64,000 nucleotides of DNA from Mytilus californianus (taxonomy: Eukaryota). The notes under the pieces are model-generated. The model saw only the letters and a program-made list of their open reading frames with translations, did no database searches and was not told the DNA's origin. Every line of letters begins with the position of its first letter. The stretch's first letter is position 1. Below, piece by piece: positions 22,150 through 59,200 of the stretch. The position numbers and the translations under genes were made by a program. Location: contig NW_026262745.1 in NCBI RefSeq assembly GCF_021869535.1, positions 12,524,001 to 12,588,000 on the forward strand, given 5' to 3'.

Positions 22150-22705
22150 CATGAGCATCATGACGGGTGTCTCTAGTGGAGTAGGATCTACTTACACTTC
22201 GTAAGGACCTGATTCCCCCCCCCCCCCCCCCAGTTTAAGGTTGAGTTCGTGTTGCTAAGTCTTTAGTTTTCTGTGATGTGTTTTGCAGAATTGTTTGTCT
22301 TTTCGCCGTATGTGCTGTTGGCCATGATATTGTCTTTTCGCCGTATGTGCTGTTGGCCATGATATTGTCTTTTCGCCGTATGTGCTGTTGGCCATGATAT
22401 TGTCTTTTCGCCGTATGTGCTGTTGGCCATGATATTGTCTTTTCGCCGTATGTGCTGTTGGCCATGATATTGTCTTTTCGCCGTATGTGCTGTTGGCCAT
22501 GATATTGTCTTTTCGCCGTATGTGCTGTTGGCCATGATATTGTCTTTTCGCCTTATGTGCTGTTGGCCATGAGATTGTCTTTTCGTCGTATGTGCTGTTG
22601 GCCATGATATTGTCTTTTCGCCTTATGTGCTGTTGGCCATGATATTGTCTTTTCGCCGTATGTGCTGTTGGCCATGATATTGTCTGTTTTTTCGACTTAC
22701 GGTTT
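22150..22705 (+). mobile_element. Dispersed repeat family B copy with an internal minisatellite expansion
   Basis: catgacgggtgtctctagtggagtaggatc...cttagttttctgtgatgtg flanks match family B. Confidence 0.7.
22295..22685. repeat. 35-bp minisatellite, about 11 copies
   Basis: Unit ttgtcttttcgccgtatgtgctgttggccatgata, starts at 22295, 22330 and onward. Confidence 0.97.
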
Positions 22706-24071
22706 TTGATCTATCTATCTATGCGCCTAAAGTGCAGACAATACCTCATATATACAGGCATTCCATATTATTTAAATATGTTTCGTGTAATTTTTTTAGT
22801 TAATAAAACAGAAGAAGAGTGTCCTTGATTTCAGTATCTGAAATACAGTAATTTGAGCGTCGATCGGACTACTGTACTCGTTCAATTAATTTCTATAGAC
22901 AGATTGAGTGACAAATATAACTCTGTGACCGATTCTATGTATATAAATTTTTAATTACATTGAGATGCGATCAAGTCTCTGATATCAAAAATGTTTAAAC
23001 AATTAATCAAATTGAACAAGGCAGTAAAACTTTGAAGTTTTTTTTGTCTTTTGTTTTTTTTATTTGCTTAGTTAAAATACAGCTTTAAAACAATACAACT
23101 TGACATGACATTTCTTGTAGCTATATATATTGAAGGACCAAATAGTTTTAGCATTTTTATAAATATACACCTGTTCGAAAGAAATGAACCTTTGAAAGAG
23201 CTTAAAATTAAAACTTACTTTTCGAAATAGTAATTTGTCCAGCAAATATAAATAAAACAATACTCGTAATAGAACTAGCTTTATTTCCCATAACTCATCA
23301 AACGAGCTAAATATGATTACATCATAATTATAATTTGGTACTACATTTTTTGTACTTCCTTCAAAGTGTGGTTTTTACAAAGGACATCAAATTCAAAACA
23401 TGATTGCATATGAACTATATAATATGAAAGTATACAAAACACAAGGAAGGAATTCTTTTCAAATTTTATACTTTTTGTGCTCTTACGGAATTTTACTCAT
23501 CATATGTGTAAAAAATTTAATAATAAATCAAATGAAATCATCCATGAAATTTTATGTATCTTACAAACATATTAAAGTTAGGATCAATTACAAAATTAAG
23601 GGAAAAATATTCCACATGTTTGTTGAGAGTACATTGACCATACCCGAAATAAACGGAGCAGTATTTGGGACAGGAATTTACACAGTCACTACTAACCGCC
23701 CGTTACGACAACTCTTTTGAGCTTTTCAGACACGAGCAGCCAATATCTATATCAGATTTAACATTTGCTCTTTTCACTTGGTTTATTTACCCCCTCTTTT
23801 TTCATACACATCAAAGTAAAGATACCGTAGAAATTGTTCAAAGTTTGATTTTCAATAATTTCAATACAATTGCTCACAGACCCACACGTATTGAACAAAA
23901 TTCAGGGACTATGTATTGCTTTCTTCAGCAAATAAGTTTTACTTCAAAAGAAGGATTAGTATTTTTTAACAGGCCCAACTTTTACCAAAAAATATAATGT
24001 CGGTTTCATGTTCATGAATTGAAATTACATTTACATATTTCTTTTTAAATCAGTAAGTCAAATATCCATAG

Positions 24072-33735: not shown

Positions 33736-35174
33736 TTTTAGTGTTCTGAAGTACTATAAAGTTATCAGTATTCACAAAACTACTTTTATTGAGTTCAAGG
33801 TCAGCTGAACTTTGCAAAGCGCCGTCATGTTTTCTTACATAATAATATTCTTACATAAAACATATAAAGTTGACTTATCATTTATACTAACTGAGATACT
33901 GACCTCGTCATTGAAACTTGACATGTGAACCATAAATCGAGATCAAGGTAACGGTTAACTTTGTCGGGCAGAAAGAAACACACTTTTCTGCTTCTACGGA
34001 CAAAAGATACTCGACCTTTACTTGTAGAAAATGAGACACTTACATTATCACAAAAGCAATGTTTACCAATTAACAATAAAAACAGGGTCATAATCAGGCT
34101 TAAACTTCTAGACGGACGAGTAAACCTTACACTGATTCTAGGAAAAAACTAGTGCCTATAACACTAATTGAAAAATTCACAGAATAAAAATTAGAGGCTC
34201 CAAGCCGAATGACAATTTCAGCTATGTTAATTTATTTGTAGATCTTATTTTGCTTATCATTTTTTATATTACAGTTTTTACTCTATCTACTATAGTTTCA
34301 GCCAAAAATCGCAAAAATGGTATAGTGGTCTTTTCAATGGCAATCAATCATATTATAAGTCGATTGACTGACTTGACTTATTTGTATACATATATCTTAT
34401 TTTGCCGATCATTTTTGCAATTTATAGTTTCTCTCTATCTACTATAGTTTCCACAAAAACAGGTAAAAATAGTCATGAAAGGGCAATAACTTCTGTTAGG
34501 AATCGACTACCGATTTCAGCTATGTTAATCATATCTGTAGATCTAATTTTGCTCATCATTTGCTGCTTCCATCTATCTACCATCGTTTCCGTACCACAAA
34601 GTGTAACAAGAGTACACACGATGAAATGTCTCTCCTGCTTTACTTATAACTGAATTTATGTTGAAAGTCTGTAATATGAAGGTTTTGCTACAAGCATTAT
34701 ATACACTTATTCATTATCAATGATCCATGAAAATGTTGTCAATGTTAAATGAACCACAGACAGACATGTACAATCATTACATAAACCAAATATAGTTGTC
34801 CGATTGCTCATAGTTCCCGGAAAACAGACCAAACAACATAAACTTAACATTGACCAATGAACCTTGAAATAGGTCAAGGTCATATGAACCCTGCCAGACT
34901 GACATGTACACCTTACAATCATTCCATACAACAAATATAGTTGACATATTGCTTGTAGAATCTGATAAACTAACACAAGAGTACACTTGCTGAAATGTCT
35001 CGCCTTCTTTACTTATCATGATTGAATTTTTGTTGAAAGTGATGAAGGGTTTACTATAATTTTTCAAAAAATTTAACATTATCAATGATCATTGTAAATG
35101 GGGTCAAGGTCAATTAAACCCTTGCTAGACACCTTACATATAGAAAACCAATTGCTAACTGTATTCGAGAAACA

Positions 35175-36666
35175 TGTCACCGGGGAAACTGGGTGACTTG
35201 TAGGGTTGTGTGTAACAAGAGCCTGACTGAATGGCCTCTTGTTACTGAAACTGTGTGATGTACCTGATCACACAACGAACGATTGCTGTGAATAGCAATG
35301 AGAACTTTGGCACTGAAACTCTGGTGAAAACTAACTCTTGAGACTCTGGAACTAGCGATGAATAAATCAATAATTCAGCATGGATACTTTTATTACAGAT
35401 GGACTGTGTTCAGTGTAAAGTCCTGAGTCCAAATCTTGCTTATCAAAATTATAAATAAGTATTTATACACAATTGAAGTGACAAGAATAAACATAACAAA
35501 TAACAATTAATTTGAGTAATATTGTTCACTGTCAAGAATTAAACTATTTTTAGAACTTGAAGAATAAAGTTAATTTACTAATCTGATTATGATATTTAAA
35601 AATATATAATAATGAAAAAGGTATAATGTCACTAATTAGCTAATAGAATAAAACATGTCACTCAATGTCCAAACTGAGAATTAAATTGCATATCAAAGCA
35701 TGTTGATTTTAAGTCCTGGATATTAAATGTAAATAGAAACGAAAACATGAATTAAAAAGAAATTATGAAACACAGAGAATTAAAGTCCAAAATATCAAAA
35801 TTGAGAATTTTATATTAGAGTCCAAAATAATAAACGAAGCTGCATTTTCCTCTGTCACATATGCCTCTCCTCCCAATTAAGTCCGTCCTCGGACTTGGCA
35901 CTATCTAAATCGGCCTCCTCTGCGGTTGTTATAGTGTCTGTTGTTATAGTTTGGTCGCTGTTGGTTTTGGCTGGAAGACAACATGTCACCGGGGAAATAG
36001 GTGACTTGTAGGGTTGTGTGTAACAAGAGCCTGACTGAATGGCCTCTTGTTACTGAAACTGTGTGATGTACCTGATCACACAACGAACGATTGCTGTGAA
36101 TAGCAATGAGAACTTTGGCACTGAAACTCTGGTGAAAACTAACTCTTGAGACTCTGGAACTAGCGATGAATAAATCAATAATTCAGCATGGATACTTTTA
36201 TTACAGATGGACTGTGTTCAGTGTAAAGTCCTGAGTCCAAATCTTGCTTATCAAAATTATAAATAAGTATTTATACACAATTGAAGTGACAAGAATAAAC
36301 ATAACAAATAACAATTAATTTGAGTAATATTGTTCACTGTCAAGAATTAAACTATTTTTAGAACTTGAAGAATAAAGTTAATTTACTAATCTGATTATGA
36401 TATTTAAAAATATATAATAATGAAAAAGGTATAATGTCACTAATTAGCTAATAGAATAAAACATGTCACTCAATGTCCAAACTGAGAATTAAATTGCATA
36501 TCAAAGCATGTTGATTTTAAGTCCTGGATATTAAATGTAAATAGAAACGAAACATGAATTAAAAAGAAATTATGAAACACAGAGAATTAAAGTCCAAAAT
36601 ATCAAAATTGAGAATTTTATATTAGAGTCCAAAATAATAAACGAAGCTGCATTTTCCTCTGTCACA
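35175..36666 (-). mobile_element. Miniature Gypsy-like LTR retroelement: two near-identical LTRs and a 124-bp core
   Basis: LTRs 35175-35859 (685 bp) and 35984-36666 (683 bp) with TG...CA ends; AACA TSD at 35171-35174 and 36667-36670. Minus-strand core encodes QNQQRPNYNNRHYNNRRGGRFR* then PPT GGGAGGAGAGG next to the 3' LTR; no TGG-type PBS. Confidence 0.92.
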
Positions 36667-37524
36667 AACAGACCTAATTACGAAAATTGAAAATTGACCA
36701 ATGAACCATGAAAATGAGGTCAAGGTCAAGGTCAGATGAACCATGCCAGACAACATGTACATCATTACATACACCAAATATAGTTGACCTATTGCTTACA
36801 GTATATATATATGAAAAACACAAAAAATCATGAAAACTTAACATTGATTATAATGAACCATGAAAATGATGTCAAGGTCAGATAAACCCTGTCAGACAGA
36901 CATGTACACCTTACAATCATCCCATGCACCAAATATAGTTGACCTGTTGCTAATAGTATCCGAGACCAAGTAAACTTAACCTTGATCACTACTCCATAAA
37001 ATGAGGTCAAGGTCCTTAGTCAGGTAAATCCTGTCTGACGGACATGTAGACCTTGCAAGGAACCATCATACCAAATATAGTTATCCTATTACTCATAGTA
37101 AGTGAGAAATGTACATTACAAACATAAAAAATTCAAGCAGTCGCTTAACCATGAAAATGAGGTTAAGGACAATGGACATATGCCCGATGGAAACTTCGCA
37201 ACATAAGGCATCTGCATTCAAGGTATGAAGCAACCACGACTTCTACCTTCTGATATATGAAGCCTTAACAAGTAGTTTACGCCATTGGGTTACCCCAAAA
37301 ACTTAACATTGACCATTGACCAATGAACAATGAAAATGGGGTTAAGGTCATATGAACCCTGCCAAACAAACAACTACACCTTATAATAATTCTATACACC
37401 AAATCAAATTGACCTATTGCTTATAGTATCTGATAAACTGACAAAACATATATAATAAAACATTCACTGAATCATGAAAATGAGGTCAAGGATAATGGAC
37501 ATGTGACACATGGAAAATTCGTAA

Positions 37525-42011: not shown

Positions 42012-42220
42012 TGTATATTGATTACATGTATCTCCCATCAAATCAAAAGTGCATTGTATATTGATTACATGTATCCCCCATCAAATCAAAAGTGCATTGT
42101 ATATTTATTAAATGTATCTCCCATCAAATCAAAAGTACATTGTATATTGATTACATGTATCCCCCATCAAATCAAAAGTGCATTGTATATTGATTACATG
42201 TATCTCCCATCAAATCAAAA
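42012..42220. repeat. 43-bp minisatellite, about 5 copies
   Basis: cattgtatattgattacatgtatc(t/c)cccatcaaatcaaaagtg at 42052, 42095 and onward. Confidence 0.95.
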
Positions 42221-42551
42221 GAGGGGTTCCTACAGTAGTTTCAGATCATGGAGATATTAATTTTAGATAGGATGAAGTACTCAATCCGACATTTAATGCT
42301 TTTGTCACTTATATCATTCCATACCATATGACAATACCAAATAGTGCAAAAATACATGAATCACAAATATAATCTCCATTTTGATATCTGGGGGTTGTTT
42401 AAATAGGCATCTATGAATGACAGTTGTTCCACAGGAGTGTTTAAAATGTATGCACAATAGATGAAATACCAAAAAGATGTAAAAGACTAAATAAGAGAAA
42501 TTGATAAGTTTTAATAATCTTGTTAATTTTTATCATTCTATAAGTAGATCA

Positions 42552-56079: not shown

Positions 56080-56269
56080 ATTCTCTACAAGTAATACTTG
56101 CAGTCAAAAACAGAAATGGAGCTACTTCCAGGGTCCTAGTGATGCACCATTGTTAGGAGTAACCATTGGTCAGGGATTGGAACAGAGAGCTGATTTAAAT
56201 CCTGATAAAGAAGCTGTTATCTTCTCTACTGGAAATGTCAGGAAAACATTCAGTCAGCTATTAGAAGAG
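56080..56269 (+). CDS. ACSF2: ACSF2 exon
   Basis: ttatgcag|FSTSNT...[19 protein letters not shown]...KTFSQLLEE|gtattt. Confidence 0.92.
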
Positions 56270-59200
56270 GTATTTTTAATGAACAGTGTACATTTTAATT
56301 ACAAAGAGGTATTTTTAATGAACAGTGTACATTTTAATTACAATGAGGTATTTTTAATGAACAGTGTACATTTTAATTACAATGAGGTATTTTTAATGAA
56401 CAGTTCACATTTTAATTACAATGAAAAAGACAACCAGGAAGTACCTAGGCTATAATTTGAGAGATTTCCAATACTATATAAAGTAAGTGATGATGTCCTT
56501 TTATAATGGTGCTACTTGTATAACAATATTTTAAATTGTAGGGAAAACTTCAGATGGAAGAGAACAAAATTGAACCTCCATGAATTGTCGAAGTCTATAC
56601 AAGGGAAATAGGAGAGTTAGAATTTCCTGTATTTATCAAGAAAAAAATACTATTCACTGTCAATCATTTACTATTTAAGAAAATTCAACTTTAGATTGAA
56701 GATATTTATCAAAACCACTGATTTAATTAGATCCAAACATACTATGAAGCATCCCTTAGTAGCTATAAAATAGGATGATGCAAATTTCACCATTGATATA
56801 ATTAATTAATTAAACATAGTGGAAAGCAACACTGATCATTTACCTCAAAGTATTACAGTCCTTTAGAACAAAATATGGGGAAATTGATATTTAAATTGTT
56901 TCCTATCAGTAATGTCTTTGATGCTCCAGAAAATGTTATTATTTTGCTTTATTTTTAAGACAGACCAACTTGCAGCAGGATTGTTAGAGCTTGGTATTAA
57001 ACGAGGAGACAGAGTAGGAATATGGGGACCAAACTCCGTAGAATGGAGTCTGACACAGTATGCCACAGCTAGGGCTGGAATTATACTGGTATTTTATGTT
57101 ACAAATTTTATTTAATTTCTTTAATAAAATATCATTTTCTTCAATGTACTCTGGAATAATAATTTGATTTAAAAGAAATGTGGAGTATACATCAATAAGA
57201 CAACAAGAAGAGAAATAATAAAAAGACATAAAGAGGAAAAAACTGATAGTTTACAACAATAAACAGGTGTTTAACTCTAATCACATATGTTGCATTTTTT
57301 ATATTGATGGTTTAAAAAAAAAATAAAAAAAAAAAAAATATACAAATTGTTTTTTCTAAGGTTTTTTATTTTGCTTGATGTAATTTACACTTTTCAAAAA
57401 AGAAATGGATACATGTTTGAAATTAAAATTTTAATATCATAAATTATTTATCATAGTATATATAGGTTATTAGAACCCTTGTCATAGGTTGAGAATAATA
57501 ATAATCCACTAGCTTTATCATCAAAATTCTTATGAATATAGATGCTAATAATGAACATTTTGCATCAATTCAAAACTTCACTCATCAAATTTCTGTGGCG
57601 TAGCAAAGCCATTTTTAAGTGTACGCACGAACCTCGGCGAGGGATCTGAAGGCCCTCAGCGGCCCCAGGGCAGAGCACCTCCAGGTAGTGGTCGAAACTC
57701 CTGGAAGCTCACACGTTATCATGAAAAAGATACCGGTACGTACCGGCCATTTCTGTCATTCAAAATTCATCAATAGCAACATACTTGGTTGGTTGAGAAC
57801 AAAACTTTACTACATACAGATGATTTCAGCTTCCCAGTTGTGCACTTTTCATTTCTATGTAGCAACATTCCTGTAGAACCTGCATATGAGTTTATATCTC
57901 CCAGTTGATACGTTATTTCAGATCTTGCATTTCCTATCATGATTTCCTTGAATGAGGTTGCTACGTACAAGGAAGCTATCAAACCAAGAGTTTCAATTGG
58001 TGAAGTTAAAAGCATCCCTTCGAAATTTTTTAAGATCGCTATCACAAGTTGGTTTCACAGATGACGACGGACATGTTCCATTGTTGTAACCGCAGTTCTG
58101 TCCTCTTTTCCTCGAATTTGACCTACCGAATTAAACTTATCACCAAGTGTTTACTTATATGAGCAACACGACGGGTGCCACAAGTTTTAATTTTGTTGTC
58201 AATTGATTGACTGGTTTACCCAACATCTCCTTTTGAACATATTCTAAAGCATCTGGTTTGGACATTTTTTTCTAAAACAAAGGACAATTAGATTCCAAAT
58301 CAACACACTGAAATCAACATGAAAAAAATCCAAATCCAATACAAAAAGAGAGGCTAAATATACCAAAGGTATATTCAAACTCATCAGTTGAAAACAAACT
58401 GACATTGCCATTCAAAAGATGAAATACATCGAAAAGACAAACAGTACATAAAAGACAACATAGAAAACTAAAGACTAGGCAATACGAACCCCACCTAAAA
58501 CCGGGAGTGAACTCAGGTGCTCCAGAAGGGTAAGCATATCCTGTTTATCATGTGGCACCCACCGTGTTGCTCATTTAGATAAACACTTGGTGATAAGTCT
58601 AATTCAGTAGATCAAATTCGAGGAAAAGAGGACGGAACTGCGGTTACAACAATGGAACATGTCCGTCGTCATCTGTGAAATAGTCAACCAACTCGTGATA
58701 GTGATCTTAAAATTTTTCGAAGGGATGCTTTCAACTTCACCACTTGAAACTCTTGGTTTGATAGCTTCCTTGTACGTAGCAACCTCATTCAAGGAAATCA
58801 TGATAGGAAATGCAAGTTCTGAAATATCTTATCAACTGGGAGATATATACTCATATGCAGGTTCTACAGGAATGTTGCTACATAGAAATGAAAAGTGCAC
58901 AACTTGGAAGCTGAAATCATCTGTATGTAGTAAAGTATTGTTCTCAACCAAGTATGTTGCTATTGATGAATTTTGAATGACAGAAATGGTATCTTTTTCA
59001 TGATAACGTGTGAGCTTCCAGGAGTTTCGCCAACTACCCGGAGGTGCTCTGCCCTGGGGCCGTTGTCTGCCTTCAGATCCCTTGCCGAGGTTCAGGCGTA
59101 CACTTAAAAACGGCTTTGCCAGCCACTTAATTTGGATCAAAATAGTACTCCCTCAAAAATTCATGTGCACGCCCTGGCGTTTTGACGTAAACGTAGCTAC

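What the first reader, a model, noticed from the sequence alone, without database searches (positions are those of the whole stretch)
35171..36670. Tiny two-LTR element with no PBS and AACA at all three LTR junctions
Seen: 685- and 683-bp LTRs differing only by a few bases, so the structure is very young. The 124-bp core is only the last ~25 codons of a pol-like ORF plus a PPT. The TSD AACA flanks the element, and AACA also lies immediately inside (35980-35983), so the right LTR looks like a solo LTR with its own TSD. An LTR-initiated ORF (35901-36083, minus) runs in frame into the pol tail. Inference: either a solo LTR extended by microhomology-primed copying of PPT plus LTR from a full-length donor, an auto-integration product, or a new PBS-less miniature LTR family. 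A 4-bp coincidence cannot be excluded.
Basis: partly seen in the sequence, partly recalled or inferred. Interest (0 to 1): 0.7.

Follow-up and report, generated by a model that had tools for sequence, protein, structure and literature searches.

The report
Shrunken copy of mussel LTR retrotransposon
This is one recently inserted copy of a 2.4-kb jumping element of a mussel-type genome that has lost 874 bases, including its likely priming site, probably through a DNA-repair slip guided by a short sequence match, so it is likely a dead end rather than a new kind of mobile element.

Summary
The structure is real: LTRs 35175-35859 and 35984-36666 (one substitution, two 1-bp indels), a 124-bp core, and AACA at 35171, 35980 and 36667. 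It is not a new miniature family. The genome holds at least 13 relatives with the same LTRs around a 990-1002-bp internal region (PBS-like site, one 282-aa zinc-knuckle/coiled-coil ORF, PPT; no pol). The core is the PPT-side 124 bp of that region; 874 bp with the PBS-like site are missing. The junction occurs once in 1.65 Gb. The inner AACA is family-encoded (9 of 13 relatives read AACATGT there). The outer AACA pair is a true TSD: two public runs show the empty site with one AACA, two others show the flank-LTR junction. The breakpoint shares 7 nt (AACATGT) with this copy's own TSD-LTR junction but only 3 nt with the native junction. This favours a post-insertion repair switch (about 0.6) over a plain deletion with a chance 4-bp match (about 0.2). 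The 'pol tail' is the end of the gag-like ORF. Side result: 4 of 12 two-LTR copies carry the PBS-side ATC in place of TSD letters. The scan's notes held nothing like it. Ordinary dead-end derivative; low interest.

The parts
35171..35174 (.). Target-site duplication, left copy (AACA)
   Evidence: empty allele with a single AACA in runs X4 and X5
35175..35859 (-). LTR, 685 bp (3' LTR in the element's sense); carries the family state at all three sites where the two LTRs differ
35860..35874 (-). Polypurine tract next to the 3' LTR (role inferred from position and composition)
   Evidence: the same LTR-PPT junction at 23 places in the genome with at most 1 mismatch
35860..35983 (-). 124-bp core = PPT-side end of the family's ~998-bp internal region; 1 difference from the nearest relative (L057, G000:C143:54.82 Mb)
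35901..35984 (-). Last 27 codons and stop of the family's zinc-knuckle/coiled-coil ORF (not pol)
35980..35986 (+). Deletion junction; AACATGT is family-encoded at this place and also equals TSD plus LTR start at 35171-35177; 874 bp with the PBS-like site are missing here
35984..36666 (-). LTR, 683 bp (5' LTR in the element's sense); holds both derived changes, one 14-16 bp from the junction
36667..36670 (.). Target-site duplication, right copy (AACA)

Best explanation
This is a single, internally deleted copy of a young 2.37-kb non-autonomous LTR retrotransposon family: it sits in a true AACA target-site duplication and lacks 874 bp including the PBS-like site, which were likely lost after insertion by a repair event that used a 7-nt match between the element's interior and its own TSD-LTR junction. 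Shown: the parent family, the 874-bp gap, the family-encoded inner AACA, the true TSD, the unique junction and the 7-nt match. Inferred steps: (1) a full-length copy inserted, making AACA-LTR-internal-LTR-AACA; (2) after a break near the PBS-side LTR, repair synthesis used the other LTR (same molecule, sister, or a solo-LTR allele of this site) as template and ran a few bases past the LTR end into the TSD; (3) this end, reading ...GACATGTT in sense, re-annealed at the only ACATGTT of the interior and dropped 874 bp. Without a PBS the product would not prime reverse transcription, so it is likely immobile. Confidence that it is a one-off deletion derivative is about 0.9; the figure below is for that together with the TSD-guided mechanism.
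For: Parent family: 13 internal regions of 990-1002 bp read out of 14 loci tried, each starting with the core; PBS-LTR junction at 14 places; 282-aa ORF with 34 homologues, all named ones from Mytilus, best 84% identity. Junction unique: 1 match with at most 1 mismatch in 1.65 Gb; 1 of 24 core matches runs into an LTR at this point. TSD real: empty allele in 2 of 4 runs laid. No AACA among 13 other perfect 4-bp TSDs, so target preference does not explain it. Microhomology: 7 nt with the left junction, 3 nt with the native PBS-side junction. Crude count: this join is 1 of 55 runs of 7 nt or more shared by interior and TSD+LTR, against 1 of 9732 runs of 3 nt or more shared by interior and right LTR, about 180:1 per event before priors. 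Same lineage for core and LTRs: nearest core (1 difference) and nearest LTR (13 substitutions) are the same element, and both LTRs share 4 private columns. In-family hint that the two junctions exchange letters: 4 of 12 two-LTR copies have the PBS-side ATC at the host-side junction (p about 3e-5 against base composition, noticed after the fact).
Against: A two-switch event is rarer a priori than a plain deletion, and the native junction also resembles the breakpoint imperfectly (CAACATGT vs CAATCTGT, 6 of 8). No full-length or solo allele of this site was seen: X1 and X2 carry the flank-LTR junction (28 and 29 nt into the LTR, no differences, short of the tool's 31-nt bridging rule) but their inner form is unknown. 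The change near the junction lies in a stretch that varies in about 10 of 35 other LTRs, so it is a weak repair scar. LTR-LTR identity does not separate the models: 6 of 9 other pairs differ by 0-3 substitutions. The ATC cases may come from ligation of the unprocessed cDNA overhang at integration instead. No raw reads of the assembled individual were available.
Confidence: 0.6

Rival explanations
1. Plain post-insertion deletion between the internal TGT and the TGT that starts the right LTR; the AACA before it equals the TSD by chance.
For: Needs one step only; 3 exact nt and 6 of 8 imperfect nt are shared with the native junction. The interior has 31-37 TGT sites, and for 17% of random TSDs some TSD+TGT exists in it (2 of 12 observed TSDs).
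Against: Needs a 0.6-0.9% coincidence and a break exactly at the LTR edge; 1 of 9732 possible joins of 3 nt or more against 1 of 55 for the 7-nt route.
Confidence: 0.2
2. Deletion made during reverse transcription (plus-strand transfer at the 3-nt ACA match instead of the PBS), then normal integration of the short cDNA; the TSD match is chance.
For: Explains the exact LTR edge and near-identical LTRs. The family does yield integrated copies without a full PBS: G000:C165:43.64 Mb has identical LTRs, a CAAG TSD and only 4 nt of the PBS around a foreign poly(A)-ended insert. Microsimilarity-driven RT switches are documented (PMC5131818, passages).
Against: Still needs the 0.9% TSD coincidence; strong-stop DNA would be expected to keep the GAT spacer (own reasoning), which is absent.
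Confidence: 0.07
3. A solo LTR at this site was extended by copying core plus LTR from a full-length donor elsewhere or from cDNA.
For: Uses the same 7-nt match; solo LTRs are common (9 among the 30 best LTR loci); integrase-independent insertion at existing copies is known for Tf1 (PMC11042837, abstract).
Against: Both LTRs share 4 columns absent from 35 other LTRs, one 41 bp from the core; no assembled copy has the core's T35952.
Confidence: 0.05
4. Assembly artefact: a collapsed or chimeric full-length element.
For: No public contig listed bridges the inner junction; two of the three LTR differences are 1-bp losses beside short A runs.
Against: The join is base-exact at a biological boundary with microhomology; both the flank and the insertion are seen in other animals; contigs drop rare variants, so a missing low-depth link between repeats proves nothing.
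Confidence: 0.04
5. Auto-integration circle (LTR end joined to internal DNA by integrase) later recombined into a solo LTR at this site.
For: Explains the exact LTR edge; one internal-LTR-internal copy exists at G000:C88:122.96 Mb.
Against: Needs the ACA match, the AACA match and a second step; no AACA preference among 13 other TSDs.
Confidence: 0.02
6. A new PBS-less miniature LTR family that moves in this form.
For: Two intact LTRs, PPT and TSD are present; PBS-less TRIMs are reported in bivalves (PMC6934838, passages).
Against: One junction in the genome; none in the metagenome collection (weak); no exact complement of the first 6-12 core bases in the LTR for self-priming; it is the parent minus one block.
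Confidence: 0.02

Closest known systems
TRIMs, including biv-TRIM of bivalves (PMC6934838, passages) and Helenus (PMC10886601, abstract and section 3.6)
   Same: Two terminal repeats around a short non-coding interior with a PPT; 4-bp TSD as in animal Helenus; biv-TRIM also lacks a typical PBS.
   Different: TRIMs are under 1000 bp with 100-250-bp repeats and form multi-copy families; this is 1492 bp with ~684-bp LTRs, single copy, no tRNA gene found in L001 by ARAGORN, and it derives from a parent that has a PBS-like site.
TR-GAG type non-autonomous LTR retrotransposons (PMC8704663, passages): resemblance of the 2.37-kb parent
   Same: Two LTRs, PBS-like site, PPT and a single ORF without pol.
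   Different: Described in plants; the mussel ORF has only sub-threshold zf-CCHC matches and a coiled coil, no capsid domain was detected, so 'gag-like' is an inference.
Gypsy/Metaviridae LTR retrotransposons of bivalves (likely mobiliser)
   Same: TG...CA ends, 4-bp TSD, TGG-starting PBS-like site after a 3-nt spacer; animal elements with 4-bp TSD are tied to Gypsy in PMC10886601.
   Different: No RT, RNase H or integrase; no autonomous partner was found.
Microhomology-mediated internal deletion derivatives of transposons (PMC3814204, passages)
   Same: Miniaturisation at a 6-8-nt microhomology, with possible template switching during gap repair.
   Different: Those are DNA transposons whose derivatives stay mobile; here part of the match comes from the host TSD and the product lacks its priming site.

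Membership tests
TRIM | Total length under about 1 kb, terminal repeats 100-250 bp | tested here: not met
   1492 bp, LTRs 685 and 683 bp; definition from PMC6934838 passage
TRIM | PBS at the start of the interior | tested here: not met
   No TGG in the first 30 nt of the core in sense
TRIM | PPT before the 3' repeat | tested here: met
   35860-35874; conserved junction at 23 places
TRIM | Multiple copies of the same short structure with different TSDs | tested here: not met
   1 junction in the assembly; other individuals not resolved
Mytilus 2.37-kb non-autonomous LTR family (found here) | Same LTR | tested here: met
   39 other matches at 91-98% among 40 scored of 183 candidates, counting the window's second LTR apart: 38 outside the window
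Mytilus 2.37-kb non-autonomous LTR family (found here) | Same internal region next to the PPT | tested here: met
   Core differs by 1-3 nt from 8 of 13 internal regions
Mytilus 2.37-kb non-autonomous LTR family (found here) | 4-bp TSD | tested here: met
   AACA, empty site seen; 6 of 12 two-LTR copies and 8 of 9 solo LTRs have perfect 4-bp TSDs
TR-GAG (for the parent) | Single ORF that is a Gag | tested here: inconclusive
   zf-CCHC E=0.004, below the curated cut-off; no capsid family; sources call homologues CCHC-type domain proteins
Gypsy/Metaviridae (for the parent) | RT/integrase phylogeny and domain order | not testable with these tools
   The parent has no pol; no autonomous partner found
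Gypsy/Metaviridae (for the parent) | PBS complementary to a host tRNA 3' end | tested here: inconclusive
   GAT+TGG-starting site conserved at 14 places; no tRNA gene in 17 of the 23 one-mismatch loci checked; the other 6 not fetched
Troyka | CG...CG ends and 3-bp TSD | tested here: not met
   TG...CA ends, 4-bp TSD; definition from PMC12440569 abstract

The most novel reading that the evidence does not exclude
In this young family the host-side and PBS-side LTR junctions routinely swap letters during repair or integration: the host TSD can be carried inward and choose where the element is cut down (this copy), and the PBS-side ATC can be carried outward and overwrite the TSD (4 of 12 two-LTR copies). 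The insertion site's own sequence would then steer the birth of miniature two-LTR derivatives.
Probability: 0.3. Interest if true: 0.4.

Novelty: new member of a known kind. Interest (0 to 1): 0.2.

Why it matters
As a deletion derivative it matters little: such copies are routine. It is a clean case in which an apparent third TSD is donor sequence, a trap for annotators who would call a solo LTR or a TRIM here. If the TSD-guided mechanism holds and recurs, it would give a testable rule for where LTR elements shrink, and the ATC-overwritten TSDs would mean that TSD-based LTR finders miss about a third of two-LTR copies of this family. The parent family is young and polymorphic between animals, so it could serve as a marker.

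Tried and rejected
Junction pattern in metagenome contigs: 0 matches; uninformative, as the collection may not hold the family. Laying contigs of 4 runs on 35860-37300: swamped by a very abundant flank repeat; no listed piece bridges the inner junction, and the window's letters at 35897 and 35952 were not seen in any of the 4 runs, but contigs drop rare variants, so this says nothing on the allele form. LTR-LTR versus nearest-neighbour divergence as a test for LTR homogenisation: does not discriminate. Search for an autonomous partner: longer homologues of the ORF are 6 gene-model fusions without RT or integrase families; three stretches at diverged PPT-LTR junctions hold only diverged LTR and internal pieces. 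Cognate tRNA for the PBS-like site: not found. Self-priming of the PBS-less form: only exact complements were tested, none found. Integrase preference for AACA: rejected (0 of 13 other perfect TSDs). LTR-initiated ORF as a new gene: no ATG before the junction, no Pfam match, in-frame chance 1 in 3. Earlier findings: none by sequence; one unrelated note by place. Six paper searches listed no description of this family or of TSD-guided LTR deletion in titles or abstract starts; Repbase and Dfam could not be searched and no supplements were read, so the family may already be catalogued.

Full report
Observation. Two LTRs with TGT...ACA ends lie at 35175-35859 (685 bp) and 35984-36666 (683 bp); they differ by one substitution and two 1-bp indels, all three derived on the right LTR. 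The core is 124 bp, and AACA stands at 35171, 35980 and 36667. The element reads on the minus strand: the PPT is at 35860-35874, and no TGG follows the sense 5' LTR. The flanks are copies of a very abundant host repeat.

Parent family. The LTR has 40 scored matches out of 183 candidates in the window's own genome, 38 of them outside the window at 91-98% identity. Many come in pairs about 1.69 kb apart. From 14 loci tried, 13 internal regions of 990-1002 bp were read out. Each has a 3-nt spacer and a TGG-starting PBS-like site, one ORF and the PPT. The ORF is 282 aa in L012, has only sub-threshold zinc-knuckle matches and a coiled-coil-like part, and no RT, RNase H or integrase match. Its 34 homologues of similar length carry Mytilus names where named, so the genome is inferred to be a mussel. 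No autonomous partner was found. The parent is thus a 2.37-kb non-autonomous LTR element; that it is mobilised by a Gypsy element is inferred from its TG...CA ends and 4-bp TSD (PMC10886601, section 3.6).

What the small element is. The core equals the PPT-side 124 bp of the internal region, with one difference from the nearest relative, and 874 bp are missing. The 'pol tail' is the last 27 codons of the family ORF. The frame that runs in from the LTR has no ATG before the junction and no Pfam match. Of 24 core matches only the window's runs into an LTR at this point; 12 of the other 23 read ...GAAGACAACA followed by TGT and more internal sequence. The junction 22-mer occurs once in 1.65 Gb with up to one mismatch. 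So the inner AACA is family-encoded and the short form has not multiplied in this assembly. Core and LTRs have the same nearest relative (G000:C143:54.82 Mb), and both LTRs share 4 columns absent from 35 other LTRs, which points to descent from one insertion.

The TSD is real and the insertion is polymorphic. Of 4 runs laid on 35050-35230, X4 and X5 have a contig that follows the flank to 35174 and continues with the right flank, i.e. the empty site with one AACA. X1 and X2 have contigs that run from the flank 28 and 29 nt into the LTR without a difference; this is short of the tool's 31-nt bridging rule. Whether X1 and X2 carry the short, full-length or solo form could not be told. Family TSDs are 4 bp: perfect in 6 of 12 two-LTR copies with both ends in hand and in 8 of 9 solo LTRs, and none of the 13 other perfect ones is AACA.

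Mechanism. The breakpoint in the interior shares 7 exact nt (AACATGT) with this copy's TSD plus LTR start, and 3 exact nt (6 of 8 imperfect) with the native PBS-side junction. AACATGT occurs once in the interior, in 9 of 13 relatives. AACA is 0.88% of host 4-mers; some TSD+TGT would exist in the interior for 17% of random TSDs; this join is 1 of 55 runs of 7 nt or more between interior and TSD+LTR, against 1 of 9732 runs of 3 nt or more between interior and right LTR. These uniform counts give about 180:1 for a TSD-guided join per event; plain deletions are more common a priori, so I put the TSD-guided route at 0.6 and the plain deletion at 0.2. The inferred route is repair of a break near the PBS-side LTR using the other LTR as template, a short overshoot into the TSD, and re-annealing at the internal match. 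Microhomology of 6-8 nt with template switching has been proposed for DNA-transposon miniaturisation (PMC3814204, passages). A reverse-transcription origin (0.07), a solo LTR extended from an outside donor (0.05), assembly error (0.04), auto-integration (0.02) and a new mobile family (0.02) remain.

Results against or neutral. No allele series was seen at this site. The complex change 14-16 bp from the junction lies in a stretch that varies in about 10 of 35 other LTRs, and 6 of 9 other LTR pairs also differ by only 0-3 substitutions, so neither marks the event. The family makes integrated copies without a full PBS by another route: the copy at G000:C165:43.64 Mb has identical LTRs, a CAAG TSD, 4 nt of the PBS and a poly(A)-ended insert from a different repeat family, much like RT template-switch chimeras (PMC5131818, passages).

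Side result. In 4 of 12 two-LTR copies the host-side junction ends in ATC, the spacer of the PBS-side junction, and the TSD is broken (TATC/GTAT, GATC/GATG, CATC/CTTA, TATC/TATG); p is about 3e-5 against base composition, noticed after the fact; 0 of 9 solo LTRs show it. This may be ligation of the unprocessed cDNA overhang or the mirror image of the repair slip proposed above; not resolved.

Comparison and verdict. It fails the TRIM tests of size, PBS and copy number (PMC6934838, passages) and the Troyka ends (PMC12440569, abstract). The parent resembles TR-GAG elements (PMC8704663, passages), with Gag identity unproven. Six paper searches listed no description of this family, but repeat libraries and supplements were not seen. 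Earlier scan notes gave nothing related. Verdict: a real, young, polymorphic, probably immobile deletion derivative; new member of a known kind; interest 0.2.

Noticed in passing
L011/L013 = G000:C165:43642168-43644817: Two identical family LTRs with a CAAG TSD enclose 1265 bp that are not the family interior: spacer plus 4 nt of the PBS, then an AT-rich sequence found in at least 5 other near-full copies (88-97%), AATAAA, a poly(A) of about 43 nt not present in the one source copy whose 3' end was printed (L120), then TA and the LTR with no PPT. Looks like capture of another repeat's polyadenylated RNA during reverse transcription.
   Followed up: partly
L005/L007, L008/L006, L012/L010, L066 (G000:C110:112.75 Mb, C46:25.87 Mb, C88:127.62 Mb, C143:72.62 Mb): 4 of 12 two-LTR copies have ATC, the PBS-side spacer, at the host-side junction and a broken TSD; three have LTRs differing by 0-2 substitutions, so decay does not explain it.
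   Followed up: partly
L023, L058, L069: Three more diverged copies all have CTAA just before the left LTR; possible target preference or shared history, not tested.
   Followed up: no
L071 = G000:C88:122957614-122958972: One LTR flanked by internal sequence on both sides (positions 540-998, LTR, 1-232): a permuted or tandem-derived remnant.
   Followed up: partly
L050-L053 = G000:C165:13.21-13.24 Mb: Four diverged copies (LTR about 72-74%, core 79-83%) clustered within 30 kb in both orientations.
   Followed up: partly
window:33800-37500 outside the element: The element sits in a cluster of a very abundant repeat with units of about 145-330 bp; summed contig depth up to 10^5-10^6 in four runs. 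Not identified.
   Followed up: no
window:57603-59119: Long inverted repeat (arms of 130-266 nt, 92-95% complementary), foldback- or MITE-like.
   Followed up: no
window:811-2058, 22225-22793, 42012-42226, 56228-56422: Tandem arrays of 79, 35, 43 and 39 bp; the 39-bp array lies in an open frame whose start looks like an acyl-CoA synthetase exon (recalled resemblance; Pfam did not confirm).
   Followed up: no
P0017, P0029, P0031, P0032, P0034, P0036-P0041: The family ORF is fused into several Mytilus gene models with unrelated domains (tetraspanin, esterase, ankyrin, transporter), probably mis-annotated insertions in introns.
   Followed up: no
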